Assembly (NCBI RefSeq): GCF_056712565.1 | Contig: NZ_CM160072.1 | Strand: one strand, 5' to 3' | Length of the DNA stretch: 64,000 bases | In this document: piece after piece, positions 55,201 to 58,200 of the stretch | Numbering within the stretch: position 1 is the first letter of the stretch | Layout: each line of letters begins with the position of its first letter | Made by a program: the position numbers

Positions 55201-58200
55201 AAGAGTTAAAGAAAATCATTAGTTTGCAGGAAAACGCTATCGCTGCGGAAAGTGATAGATTTGAAGACCTGGATCACCGATTTCATAGCATTATTGCCGA
55301 AGCGACGCAAAATCGGGTACTCATCAAACAAGCTGCTGAATTATGGCGGGCAGTTCGTACAGAAAACCCCCGCTGGAAGAAACTTAACTACAAGTACCTG
55401 CATGAAAAGCATTTGCGTCTGCAATGGCTGGAAGATCACCGGGCTATTTTCCTGGCTCTGCAACAGAAAGATTCAGAGCTCGCCAGGGAAGCGTCCTGGA
55501 GACATCTGGAAAACAGCAAAAATGAACTGATCAAAATCTTCAAACAAGACGCTTCCATCAGCGATTTTGATGACTTTTTCTTCGCTCGTTAACCTTCATT
55601 AGTCCAGAGCTGGCGGGAAAAATAACGCCGGCTCTGCCTTTCGCCCTCCACTGGTACACGCTCTCTTTTTAATTGGTCTAATAAATCGACTATCATCAGA
55701 TATCTTAGATTAGCGGCAATTATCCTAAAAACTGACCTCTAAAAAACTTTCCTTTCATTTTATTCATATAACTCATTGATACAGATATAAATAACGCCTT
55801 GTTGTTCTGTTTCGTACTTTTACCTTTCTCTGCAAGCGTGATGCATCTCTCTGTTTTTGGTCTAGTGAATTATGCAAATTGGTCTACACACAAGTCGTCA
55901 GGAGTAAGAGCATAATGTCAGGGAACGAAAGTATCGCTGCCGCCCACTATGATCAGGTAACCACCTGGCCTCGGGACGGGTTACAGGCAGATATTGTCCA
56001 TATTGGTTTTGGCGCTTTTCATCGCGGACACCAGGCTGTCTACACGGATCTCGCTAATCAACTTTCGGACACCCGCTGGGGGATCTTTGAGATCAACCTG
56101 TTTGGTGATGCTCAACTGATCGAAAACTTAAATGCGCAAAATGGGCTGTTTTCGGTTGTGGAAACATCTGCATCGCAATCTACCTCACGCCTTGTGCGTT
56201 CGGTGGCTGGCGGTATTCATACCCCCAGAGATGGCATTGCCGCAGCAATCCATAAACTGGCTGAACCTCAGGTAAAAATCGTTTCATTAACTATCACCGA
56301 GAAAGGCTATTGTCTCGATCCGCAAACGCGATCACTTGATCTCACCAATGGATTAATCAACCACGATCTACAAAATCCGGATGCGCCTCAGTCGGCTATT
56401 GGCGTGATCGTCTGTGCTTTGCAACAACGTAAAGCGGCAGGACTCGCCGCTTTTAGTGTGCTCTCCTGTGACAACTTGCCAGACAATGGGCATCTGACGC
56501 GCAATGCCGTTCTCGGTTTTGCCCGACAACTGGACCAGCCCCTGGCTCAGTGGATCGAAGAAAATGTCTCATTTCCAGGCACGATGGTCGATCGCATTGT
56601 TCCGGCAATGACTGAATCGCAATTCGCCTTACTGGAAACTAAAACCGGTTATGCCGATCCCTGCGGGATCGTCTGCGAATCATTTCGTCAGTGGGTTATC
56701 GAAGATAATTTTGTGCGCGGACGACCGGAATGGGATAAAGCCGGCGCGATGTTTGTCAGCAATGTTCAGCCTTATGAAGAGATGAAGTTACGCATGTTAA
56801 ATGGTAGCCATTCATTTCTGGCTTATAACGGCTCACTGGCTGGCTATGAGTTTATCTGGCAATGCATGGAAGACGCTAATTTTCGTTCCATTACCCACCA
56901 ACTGATGATTAATGAACAAGCCCGAACACTTAATCCAGACTTAAATATCAACATCCAGGAATACGCCGACCTGTTAATTGAACGCTTTAGCAACCGTAAC
57001 GTTGCACACCGTACCGGGCAAATAGCCATGGACGGTTCACAAAAGCTTCCCCAGCGTGCACTGACGCCCTGGCTGAAATTGCATCAGCAAAAACAAAACA
57101 ATGCTGTTCTGTCACTGCTCGTTGCTGGTTGGTTGCATTATGTCATTGATGCTGTTGAGAAAAGCCAGTCTGTCGCTGATCCAATGAATGACCAATTTCA
57201 GGCGCTAATAAAGGAACAACAAGACGCATGGCAACAGGCGCTCGCATTACTGCACCTTAGCGCCATATTTGGTGATTTAAGCAACCATCAGCCATTTATA
57301 AATGAAATAAAAATCGCCTTTGCGAATATAAAAAACAAAGGCATCAAGGCCACCATCAGCCAATTATTATCGGATGAGCAGAAATGAAAACATTAATTTG
57401 TCAGCAGCCTGGCGTTATGGAATATGTGGAAAAGGATATTCCCACACCAGCAGATAATGAAGTGCTGTTAAAAATCAAAGCTGTGGGTATTTGTGGTACG
57501 GATATTCACGCTTTTGCCGGCAGACAGCCTTTTTTTAGCTACCCACGTGTATTAGGTCATGAAATATGCGCCGAAGCGGTTTCGCGAGGCAGCCAGTGCC
57601 AAACAGCACAATCAGGCCAGCGCTATTCCGTCATCCCATGCATTCCGTGTGGCGAGTGCGCAGCCTGTCGGGAAGAGAAAACGAACTGTTGCGAACGTGT
57701 TTCGCTGTATGGCGTGCATCAGGATGGGGGTTTTAGTGAGTACCTTGCGGTACGTGAAGACAACCTTGTGCCTCTCCCTGACGAGGTCAGCGACAGTGCC
57801 GGAGCATTGGTTGAATGTTTCGCCATTGGTGCACATGCCGTTCGTCGGGCAGAGATCAAGGCTGAACAAAACGTACTGGTGATTGGCGCTGGGCCAATCG
57901 GTCTGGCTACCGCAGCCATCGCCAGGGCTAAAGGGGCACATGTTGTTGTTGCTGATATTGACTGTCAACGTCGCCAGCACGTTGTGGATCATCTGGCAAT
58001 TAATGTCTTCGACCCAACACAGGAAGGTTTTATTGCCGCGCTTAGTGAAGTGTTTGGCGGCGAACTGGCTTGCGTAGTCCTGGATGCGACGGGAAATAAA
58101 GCTTCAATGAGTCATGATGTCAATCTTATTCGTCATGGCGGCAAAATTGTTTTCATCGGTTTGTATATTGGTGAACTTGTTATTGACGATCCGACCTTCC

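What the first reader, a model, noticed from the sequence alone, without database searches (positions are those of the whole stretch)
55651..55886. Repeated TTGGTCTA motif marks a likely operator for the island regulator
The exact 8-mer TTGGTCTA occurs three times in the 322-bp spacer between the GntR-type regulator and the first dehydrogenase gene (55673-55680, 55857-55864, 55879-55886), plus a related CTGGTACA at 55651-55658. The two promoter-proximal copies are 22 bp apart, about two helical turns, and sit immediately upstream of the RBS. FadR-subfamily GntR regulators typically recognise GT...AC-centred sites, so this is a testable operator prediction.
Basis: seen in the sequence. Interest (0 to 1): 0.45.

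Follow-up and report, generated by a model that had tools for sequence, protein, structure and literature searches.

The report
Conserved operator boxes of a sugar-acid island
The repeated TTGGTCTA motif is real and conserved across genera, and is most likely the binding site of the island's own UxuR/ExuR-like repressor next to a probable CRP site: a sound but fairly ordinary operator prediction for an uncharacterised sugar-acid operon carried by about a fifth of E. coli genomes.

Summary
TTGGTCTA lies at 55673, 55857 and 55879, CTGGTACA at 55651, and a fourth exact copy sits inside the regulator gene at 54880.

Within this window the repeat is only mildly unusual. Conservation is the real evidence. 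In nine lineages (Escherichia, Klebsiella, Pseudocitrobacter, Salmonella, Budvicia) the spacer has otherwise diverged, but two TTGGT boxes stay exactly 22 bp apart, 31-43 bp before the start codon where the start is clear. A CRP-like site sits 19-20 bp upstream of them. The six-taxon subgroup with the TRAP transporter also keeps a second, distal pair 22 bp apart (55651/55673).

The regulator is a distinct paralogue of UxuR and ExuR. An unbiased dyad count in orthologous loci recovers TGGT-N2-ACCA, the UxuR-type palindrome, as the family motif. So the 8-mer is a clade-specific half-site plus centre, not the whole site. The window's boxes are degenerate palindromes, all in one orientation.

Best model: the repressor occupies the core promoter of a CRP-dependent promoter and is released by a sugar acid. 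Binding, the transcription start and the inducer are untested.

The copy inside the gene is probably a coding coincidence.

Verdict: interpretation supported and refined; new member of a known kind; moderate interest.

The parts
54843..55592 (+). Island regulator gene (249 aa): FadR-subfamily GntR protein and a distinct paralogue of UxuR and ExuR.
   Evidence: NCBIfam best hits are UxuR at 191.7 bits (cutoff 442) and ExuR at 186.4 bits (cutoff 396). Pfam GntR and FCD domains are recorded for it. RefSeq names it 'FadR/GntR family transcriptional regulator'. Its subfamily signature is TSR(T/A)TIREA with wing V(K/R)QG, against (T/S)RTVVREA with VR(R/K)G in UxuR and ExuR.
55605..55636 (+). Terminator-like hairpin (11-bp stem) just after the regulator stop codon, followed by a poor T-tract.
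   Evidence: The RNA fold gives -22.4 kcal/mol with z = -2.46. The consensus terminator scan did not call it. The sequence is conserved in the Escherichia relatives.
55648..55665 (+). Distal box D1 (core CTGGTACA, 55651-55658).
   Evidence: It lies 22 bp upstream of D2, and a partner box (C/T)TGGT 22 bp from a second distal box is present in all eight TRAP-type sequences, covering six taxa. It scores -5.0 with the symmetric family PWM.
55670..55687 (+). Distal box D2 (TAATTGGTCTAATAAATC; core 55673-55680).
   Evidence: AATTGGT is invariant in the 8-sequence spacer alignment although the flanks are diverged or replaced. PWM score 7.1.
55837..55852 (+). CRP-like site CGTGA-TGCATC-TCTCT (7 of 10 consensus positions).
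   Evidence: It starts 20 bp (19 in L016 and L009) before the box A TTGGT in every lineage. Orthologues match better: TGTGACTTCAATCACT, TGTGATCATATTCACG, TGTGATTTTAATCTCA. GTGA is invariant in alignment A2. The match is not significant in the window alone.
55854..55871 (+). Proximal box A (TTTTTGGTCTAGTGAATT; core 55857-55864).
   Evidence: TTTTGGT is invariant in nine lineages, at 1.67 bits per column against 0.45-0.61 in the flanks. PWM score is only 3.2.
55876..55893 (+). Proximal box B (AAATTGGTCTACACACAA; core 55879-55886). It has the GT-N2-AC form and overlaps the inferred -10 and +1.
   Evidence: ATTGGT..aCa is conserved in nine lineages, always 22 bp from box A. It lies 31-43 bp before the start codon in the eight lineages where the start is clear. 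Some E. coli strains carry TTGGTATA here. PWM score 7.0.
55900..55917 (+). RBS AGGAG (55900-55904) and ATG (55915-55917) of the first gene.
   Evidence: Read directly from the sequence. The RefSeq CDS start in the identical UM146 record agrees.
55915..62316 (+). Regulated operon of six genes: a mannitol-dehydrogenase-family enzyme (UxuB-like), a Zn-dependent alcohol dehydrogenase, an Ldh_2 oxidoreductase, and TRAP transporter subunits DctP, DctQ and DctM.
   Evidence: NCBIfam hits and RefSeq annotation. Gaps between genes are at most 72 bp, and the 72-bp gap before dctP contains no TTGGT.
54877..54894 (+). Copy inside the regulator CDS (ATATTGGTCTACAGATTG), codons 12-17. Probably coincidental; possibly an autoregulatory site.
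   Evidence: It has the best PWM score of the five, 12.1, rank 2 in 64 kb. The peptide D-I-G-L-Q is conserved in nearly all orthologues, whereas the DNA motif survives only in the 87%-identical Pseudocitrobacter gene.

Best explanation
The four boxes (55651, 55673, 55857, 55879) are operator sites for the FadR-type GntR regulator encoded just upstream, which belongs to a distinct paralogous subfamily of UxuR and ExuR. Each box is a degenerate UxuR-type site, TTGGT-N2-ACCAA, in which only the left half-site is kept strong, and all four point the same way. They form two pairs with an invariant 22-bp spacing, about two helical turns, so two dimers would sit on the same DNA face and probably bind cooperatively. 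The proximal pair lies between a conserved CRP-like site and the RBS. If CRP acts in class II geometry, the start of transcription is near 55886-55887, box A covers about -32 to -15 and box B about -10 to +8. A bound repressor would then exclude RNA polymerase. A sugar-acid intermediate bound at the FCD domain would release the repressor, and cAMP-CRP would then activate the six-gene operon. Shown here: the boxes, their conservation and spacing, the family motif and the paralogy of the regulator. Inferred: who binds, repression rather than activation, the CRP role, the transcription start, cooperativity and the inducer.
For: Box positions are confirmed. The regulator's best family matches are UxuR and ExuR, far below their cutoffs, so it is a paralogue. 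A dyad count in cluster intergenic regions of eight orthologous loci, none of which is the window, ranks TGGT-N2-ACCA first: 10 observed against 0.71 expected, in 6 of 8 loci. A PWM trained on those loci recovers sites at gntP-uxuA, uxuR and exuR in K-12, scoring 11.5-17.2, which matches the published UxuR operator AAATTGGTATACCAATTT (PMC8092373). The proximal pair is kept at exactly 22 bp in nine lineages, 31-43 bp from the start codon where the start is clear (eight lineages), with 1.63-1.67 bits per column inside the boxes and 0.45-0.61 outside. In the 8-sequence TRAP-type alignment (54% mean identity) the only long invariant runs are the boxes, plus the 4-base GTGA of the CRP site. The distal pair is also kept at 22 bp. 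The boxes travel with the regulator through four genomic contexts and several transporter types. The FCD residues D-x3-H, DH and HLEN are conserved with UxuR and ExuR in the alignment. UxuR and ExuR are annotated as repressors. Nothing points to an RNA element or a small ORF.
Against: As palindromes the window's boxes are weak: PWM scores are 7.1, 3.2, 7.0 and -5.0, against 16-17 for the best K-12 UxuR sites, and 27 or more other positions in the 64 kb score as high. No sigma-70 promoter was found by the consensus scan, and the CRP match is only 7 of 10 and not significant in the window alone. The transcription start is therefore inferred from geometry only. The distance between the pairs varies from 161 to 243 bp without phase conservation, so the role of the distal pair is unexplained. 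The motif cannot be told apart from that of UxuR and ExuR at this resolution, so they may also bind. No binding or expression data exist; the only paper found on the island is purely bioinformatic (PMC12928451).
Confidence: 0.65

Rival explanations
1. The boxes are bound mainly by the core-genome hexuronate repressors UxuR and/or ExuR, placing the island in the hexuronate regulon. The local regulator would then bind elsewhere or only modulate.
For: The family PWM also finds sites at gntP-uxuA, uxuR and exuR in K-12, and the published UxuR operator has the same TTGGT..ACCAA core. The DNA-reading helix is similar in all three proteins. The operon encodes UxuB-like and LgoD-like enzymes.
Against: The boxes travel with the local regulator gene across unrelated insertion sites and genera. 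The window's boxes are much poorer palindromes than the K-12 UxuR sites. The subfamily carries its own conserved wing and helix residues: Q in place of R or K, and T/A-T-I in place of T-V-V.
Confidence: 0.15
2. The local regulator binds the boxes but works differently: as an activator, or as a roadblock within a 5' UTR transcribed from a promoter further upstream in the AT-rich spacer.
For: No sigma-70 promoter was called anywhere in the spacer, so the start site is open. A TTCATA-N17-TATAAA candidate lies at 55763-55791 (read). From memory and not checked here, some FadR-family sugar-acid regulators such as LgoR are reported to act positively.
Against: The middle of the spacer, including 55763-55791, is not conserved and is replaced in E. 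whittamii and Klebsiella. The CRP-box A-box B-RBS geometry is fixed, and the boxes lie downstream of the CRP site, where a class II promoter places RNA polymerase. The closest relatives, UxuR and ExuR, are repressors.
Confidence: 0.12
3. The repeats are chance or neutral duplications in an AT-rich spacer and have no function.
For: About six other places in the 64 kb also carry an 8-mer three times within 322 bp. TTGGT-N17-TTGGT appears at least once in 12 of 100 shuffles.
Against: Box sequence, orientation and the 22-bp spacing are invariant in nine lineages while the flanking sequence has diverged to 0.45-0.61 bits per column.
Confidence: 0.03
4. Same-orientation repeats about 21-22 bp apart next to a CRP site are the signature of an AraC/XylS-type activator encoded elsewhere in the genome.
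For: All four boxes point the same way and no inverted ACCAA occurs in the spacer. From memory, the araI1-I2 half-sites have about 21-bp periodicity next to a CRP site.
Against: The island encodes no AraC-family gene. The same core appears as full TTGGT-N2-ACCAA palindromes beside orthologous regulators.
Confidence: 0.03

Closest known systems
UxuR and ExuR operators of the E. coli hexuronate regulon (FadR-subfamily GntR repressors; operator AAATTGGTATACCAATTT)
   Same: They share the TTGGT core, the 2-nt GT-AC distance (PMC4494728) and A/T flanks. Each is a sugar-acid catabolic operon lying next to or near its regulator. The PWM from this family's loci scores K-12 sites upstream of uxuA/gntP and uxuR at 16-17. 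The K-12 uxuR promoter region also has two adjacent hits 20 bp apart, at L019 5384 and 5404.
   Different: The regulator is a paralogue, not an orthologue, with its own wing and helix residues. The window's boxes keep only the left half-site, are all co-oriented, and occur as two pairs with a fixed 22-bp spacing.
NanR and its (GGTATA)3 operator (FadR-subfamily repressor of sialic-acid genes)
   Same: Same regulator subfamily. The repeat unit TGGTATAW (PMC4494728) resembles TGGTCTAx. Several dimers bind co-oriented repeats cooperatively (PMC8012715).
   Different: From memory of the published operator, NanR repeats are contiguous with a period under one helical turn; here the period is 22 bp. 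NanR is a much weaker family match, 85 bits against 192 for UxuR.
FadR-subfamily consensus operator (TKGT / ACMA boxes)
   Same: Boxes B and D1 have TGGT-N2-AC, which fits TKGT..ACMA.
   Different: Boxes A and D2 lack the AC half.
CRP-dependent, repressor-occluded catabolic promoters in general (from memory)
   Same: A CRP-like site at fixed distance lies upstream of repressor boxes that overlap the inferred core promoter.
   Different: Neither CRP dependence nor the transcription start has been measured for this promoter.

Membership tests
FadR-subfamily GntR regulator | N-terminal GntR winged helix-turn-helix domain plus C-terminal FCD domain | tested here: met
   PF00392 and PF07729 are recorded for the protein and its orthologues. 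All top NCBIfam hits are FadR-subfamily members.
UxuR or ExuR orthologue | Score above the curated equivalog cutoff | tested here: not met
   UxuR 191.7 bits against cutoff 442, and ExuR 186.4 bits against cutoff 396. The subfamily has distinct conserved residues.
UxuR/ExuR-type operator | TTGGT core with GT-N2-AC spacing and A/T flanks | tested here: met
   Boxes B and D1 have GT-N2-AC, and all four boxes have (T/C)TGGT. At family level the top dyad is TGGT-N2-ACCA.
UxuR/ExuR-type operator | Two-fold (palindromic) symmetry of each site | tested here: not met
   Symmetric PWM scores are 7.1, 3.2, 7.0 and -5.0, against 16-17 for K-12 UxuR sites. There is no inverted TTGGT in the spacer. Symmetry is met in orthologous loci, for example L006 AAACTGGTATACCAATAC and L012 ATTTTGGTAAACCAATTT.
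UxuR/ExuR-type operator | Conserved upstream of orthologous operons | tested here: met
   Nine lineages, with invariant cores and spacing.
UxuR/ExuR-type operator | Bound by the cognate regulator and released by its effector | not testable with these tools
   Needs EMSA, footprinting or ChIP. No such data appeared in the literature searched.
NanR-type direct-repeat operator | Contiguous tandem GGTATA repeats with a period under one helical turn | tested here: not met
   The period here is 22 bp. The (GGTATA)3 description comes from PMC8012715.
Class II CRP-dependent promoter | TGTGA-N6-TCACA site centred near -41.5 | tested here: inconclusive
   The window site matches 7 of 10 positions and several orthologues 9 of 10, at a fixed 19-20 bp from box A. 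The transcription start is unknown, no -10 or -35 was called, and the match is not significant in the window alone.

The most novel reading that the evidence does not exclude
The regulator belongs to a previously undescribed UxuR/ExuR-like subfamily that reads arrays of co-oriented or weakly palindromic boxes phased at 20-22 bp. Examples are four boxes at 21-bp steps upstream of an Agarivorans agarase gene and the two 22-bp pairs here. That would imply higher-order, same-face oligomerisation, different both from a single UxuR palindrome and from NanR's contiguous repeats. In marine bacteria this subfamily would be the regulator of red-algal 3,6-anhydro-L-galactose catabolism, and enterobacteria, including ExPEC-lineage E. 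coli, would have inherited parts of that module together with its operator architecture.
Probability: 0.25. Interest if true: 0.55.

Novelty: new member of a known kind. Interest (0 to 1): 0.35.

Why it matters
The ygiQ-ftsP island is present in 1211 of 5426 complete E. coli genomes, including B2/ExPEC strains such as UM146 and IHE3034. It has been described only by annotation (PMC12928451). A conserved, precisely mapped control region gives a direct route to finding its inducer and substrate. That region consists of four boxes, a CRP-like site and a predicted transcription start. Useful experiments include a reporter fusion, a regulator-based biosensor in the style used for UxuR (PMC8092373), and box mutants. 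The region also raises the question of cross-talk between three paralogous repressors that read nearly the same DNA word in one cell.

Tried and rejected
1. The consensus sigma-70 and terminator scan of 54500-56000 found no promoter and did not call the hairpin after the regulator gene. Promoter placement therefore rests on geometry alone.

2. The symmetric family PWM does not single out the window's boxes: ranks 27, 28, 141 and about 2400 in 64 kb. I therefore rejected the reading that each box is a strong palindromic operator.

3. I rejected the copy inside the CDS at 54880 as a conserved autoregulatory operator. The peptide is conserved in nearly all orthologues, but the DNA word survives only in one close relative.

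4. DNA looping between the distal and proximal pairs is not supported. The distance between pairs is 161, 168, 170, 173, 184 or 243 bp, with no phase conservation.

5. An RNA element or leader peptide is not supported. There is no Rfam hit at E up to 1, the fold z-score is 0.03, and the only small ORFs are unconvincing ones of 33-38 aa.

6. The genome-contig scan with the single protein returned only four close relatives. The more distant orthologues came from the look-up of encoding contigs instead.

7. Literature searches for an operator, for regulation of this island, or for a GntR regulator of anhydrogalactonate catabolism found nothing.

8. The 72-bp gap before the TRAP genes contains no TTGGT, so no internal operator is proposed.
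Full report
**Where the finding lies.** The window is 100% identical to chromosomes of E. coli strains such as UM146, IHE3034 and ATCC 11775. The finding sits in a seven-gene insertion between ygiQ and ftsP.
- The insertion encodes a FadR/GntR regulator (54843-55592), a mannitol-dehydrogenase-family enzyme (55915-57387) and a Zn-dependent alcohol dehydrogenase (57384-58400).
- It also encodes an Ldh_2 oxidoreductase (58411-59421) and a DctPQM TRAP transporter (59494-62316).
- It is present in 1211 of 5426 complete E. coli genomes.
- The only paper found on it ('GR 21' of strain BEN2908, PMC12928451) is an annotation survey that says nothing about regulation.

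**The observation.**
- TTGGTCTA lies at 55673, 55857 and 55879, and CTGGTACA lies at 55651.
- The spacer is 322 bp, and the RBS AGGAG (55900) and ATG (55915) follow the last copy.
- Two things were missed. A fourth exact copy lies at 54880 inside the regulator gene, identical over 11 bases to the copy at 55878-55888.
- Also, 55651 and 55673 are 22 bp apart, like 55857 and 55879.

**Is it more than chance?** Within this window the signal is only modest.
- Three copies of any 8-mer in such a spacer occur in 74 of 20000 shuffles.
- Even so, roughly six places in the real 64 kb show the same property.
- TTGGT-N17-TTGGT is seen once against 0.13 expected.

**What the regulator is.** Its best family matches are UxuR (1.4e-56) and ExuR (6e-55), both far below the curated cutoffs. 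It is therefore a paralogue.
- An alignment with K-12 UxuR and ExuR (loci) shows a similar recognition helix and conserved FCD residues D-x3-H, DH and HLEN.
- Orthologues from ten taxa share a subfamily signature: TSR(T/A)TIREA with wing V(K/R)QG.
- UxuR and ExuR instead carry (T/S)RTVVREA with wing VR(R/K)G.

**Orthologous loci.** Protein search and contig look-ups gave orthologues at 50-98% identity.
- The closer ones are E. whittamii, E. albertii, a second E. coli lineage and Klebsiella spallanzanii.
- Others are Pseudocitrobacter, Salmonella, Budvicia and a second E. coli island at gyrB-yidB.
- The marine ones are Vibrio, Agarivorans and Marinomonas.
- The constant partners of the regulator are the three dehydrogenase genes.
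- The transporter varies (TRAP or MFS), as does the insertion site (ygiQ-ftsP, speA-speB, gyrB-yidB and others).

**Family motif, derived without the window.** I counted all 4-mer/N0-8/reverse-complement dyads in the cluster intergenic regions of eight orthologous loci.
- TGGT-N2-ACCA ranks first: 10 observed against 0.71 expected, in 6 of 8 loci.
- The next-ranked dyads, TTGG-N4-CCAA, ATTG-N6-CAAT and AATT-N8-AATT, are other registers of the same palindrome.
- The resulting PWM has consensus ATATTGGTTAACCAATAT.
- It scores 16-17 at K-12 sites upstream of uxuA/gntP and uxuR, and 11.5 upstream of exuR.
- This agrees with the published UxuR operator AAATTGGTATACCAATTT (PMC8092373).
- It also agrees with the FadR-subfamily TKGT/ACMA rule with a 2-nt GT-AC distance for UxuR (PMC4494728).

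**Phylogenetic footprint.** Nine lineages were aligned without gaps, anchored on the last box.
- The consensus is gtga......tc.c...TTTTGGT.t.gtga.T.a...aaATTGGT..aCa.a..a.
- Information content is 1.67 and 1.63 bits per column in the two boxes, against 0.45-0.61 in the flanks.
- The two boxes are always exactly 22 bp apart.
- They lie 31-43 bp before the start codon in the eight lineages where the start is clear.
- In an 8-sequence alignment of TRAP-type spacers (mean identity 54%) the middle of the spacer is replaced in some taxa.
- There the only runs of six or more invariant columns are AATTGGT (55672), TTTTGGTCT (55854) and AAATTGGT (55876).
- A shorter invariant GTGA lies at 55838.
- The distal pair (C/T)TGGT...TTGGT is also kept at 22 bp in all of these sequences.

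1. The exact 8-mer is clade-specific. Salmonella, Budvicia and the gyrB-site island have TTGGTATG, TTGGTAAA or TTGGTACA. Some E. coli strains have TTGGTATA at the last box.
2. As palindromes the window's boxes are weak. PWM scores are 7.1, 3.2, 7.0 and -5.0, ranking from 27 to about 2400 in the 64 kb.
   - Only the left half-site is strong.
   - All boxes point the same way, and the spacer has no inverted TTGGT.
   - Binding strength probably depends on pairing two boxes on the same face of the helix.
   - Tandem boxes at 20-22-bp steps recur in the marine loci, for example L012 at 18455, 18476, 18497 and 18518.
3. A CRP-like site (window CGTGATGCATCTCTCT, 55837-55852) starts 19-20 bp before the first proximal box in every lineage.
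   - The Klebsiella, Salmonella and Pseudocitrobacter versions match 9 of 10 consensus positions.
   - Only class II geometry leaves room for a leader carrying the RBS. This places +1 near 55886-55887, box A at about -32 to -15 and box B at about -10 to +8.
   - This is inference. The promoter scan called nothing, and the CRP match is not significant in the window alone.
4. The distance between the pairs varies from 161 to 243 bp with no phase conservation, so looping is not supported.
   - The distal pair instead keeps its place 54-81 bp after the regulator's stop codon.
   - That is just beyond a strong hairpin at 55605-55636 (-22.4 kcal/mol, z = -2.5).
   - Its role is open. It might block read-through from the regulator gene.
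5. The copy inside the CDS has the best PWM score, 12.1. It encodes D-I-G-L-Q, a peptide conserved in nearly all orthologues, but the DNA word survives only in one close relative. I treat it as a probable coincidence.

**Alternatives.**
- An RNA element or leader peptide is unlikely.
- Binding by UxuR or ExuR cannot be excluded, because the motif is the same at this resolution.
- The boxes travel with the local regulator gene through unrelated contexts, which makes that protein the most economical candidate.
- Activation rather than repression is disfavoured, because the boxes lie downstream of the CRP site and the nearest relatives are repressors.

**Context seen on the way.**
- In Agarivorans and Vibrio the orthologous regulator sits among agarase genes, an aldehyde dehydrogenase, an enolase-superfamily gene, a KDG kinase and a KDPG aldolase.
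- The enolase-superfamily gene of the gyrB-site E. coli island matches the crystallised 3,6-anhydro-alpha-L-galactonate cycloisomerase at E = 5e-200.
- That gene is 76% identical to the Agarivorans protein.
- Salmonella carries fragments of the same gene between the regulator and the operon.
- The subfamily is therefore linked to catabolism of red-algal sugar.
- The island in this window lacks the cycloisomerase and has a TRAP transporter instead.
- Its Zn-dependent dehydrogenase is 55% identical to L-galactonate dehydrogenase YjjN, and its first enzyme is 49% identical to UxuB (PMC12928451).
- The likely inducer is thus a hexuronate- or hexonate-type acid. It cannot be named from sequence.

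**Verdict.** This is a new, well-footprinted member of a known kind of operator, and it is of moderate interest.

Noticed in passing
L009 9791-10879 (-) and L010, E. coli contigs at the gyrB-yidB site: A second E. coli island carries a 79%-identical paralogous regulator, the same three dehydrogenases, an MFS transporter and an enolase-superfamily gene. That gene matches the crystallised 3,6-anhydro-alpha-L-galactonate cycloisomerase (5xd7) at E = 5e-200 and is 76% identical to the Agarivorans protein. This suggests catabolism of an agar-derived sugar acid in some E. coli.
   Followed up: partly
L012 18455-18535; L013 13351-13410; L011 8714-8771: In marine orthologous loci the TTGGT..ACCAA boxes form arrays of three or four at 20-22-bp steps upstream of agarase and aldehyde-dehydrogenase genes. 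Helical-phase arrays therefore look like a trait of the whole subfamily.
   Followed up: partly
L007 9802-11032 (Salmonella, speA-speB site): The 1.2-kb gap between the regulator and the operon holds minus-strand ORF fragments resembling the cycloisomerase (for example GGIASFAMSAVDIALWDLKGKREKLPLWKMAG). This looks like a pseudogene remnant.
   Followed up: partly
window 54592-62386 (whole island): The island contains 11 family-PWM hits scoring at least 7, against 4.1 +/- 2.0 in dinucleotide shuffles (P = 0.008). Several lie inside coding sequence (57181, 58165, 59146, 59867, 61073). Island GC content is 45.1% against 51.5% for the rest of the window.
   Followed up: partly
window 59494-60477: The closest solved homologues of the TRAP solute-binding protein are 4ovr and 4x8r (E about 1e-66). 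From memory these are hexuronate-binding proteins from a structural-genomics screen; the ligands were not checked here.
   Followed up: no
L015 about 6900-7030 (E. whittamii spacer): The middle of the spacer is replaced by an insertion containing a REP-like palindrome (GGCCTGATACGCGTAGCGCATCAGGC), while both box pairs are retained.
   Followed up: no
window 5101-5620, 7701, 47101-47570, 61701-62270, 63401-63820: These are the other places where some 8-mer occurs three times within 322 bp (for example GGTTCTGG and GTCGGCTC near 5100-5600). They were found in the chance control and not examined.
   Followed up: no
L019 5384-5421 (K-12, upstream of uxuR): The K-12 uxuR promoter region has two adjacent PWM hits 20 bp apart (TTACTGGTCAATCAAACT and TATTTGGTTGACCAGTTT), so paired boxes also occur at a promoter of a classical UxuR-regulon gene.
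   Followed up: no
L002 1325-2324 (E. coli Z1323CEC0015): In this strain the first dehydrogenase gene is annotated as frameshifted. Its spacer is also the most divergent sampled (92% identity), yet all four boxes are intact.
   Followed up: no
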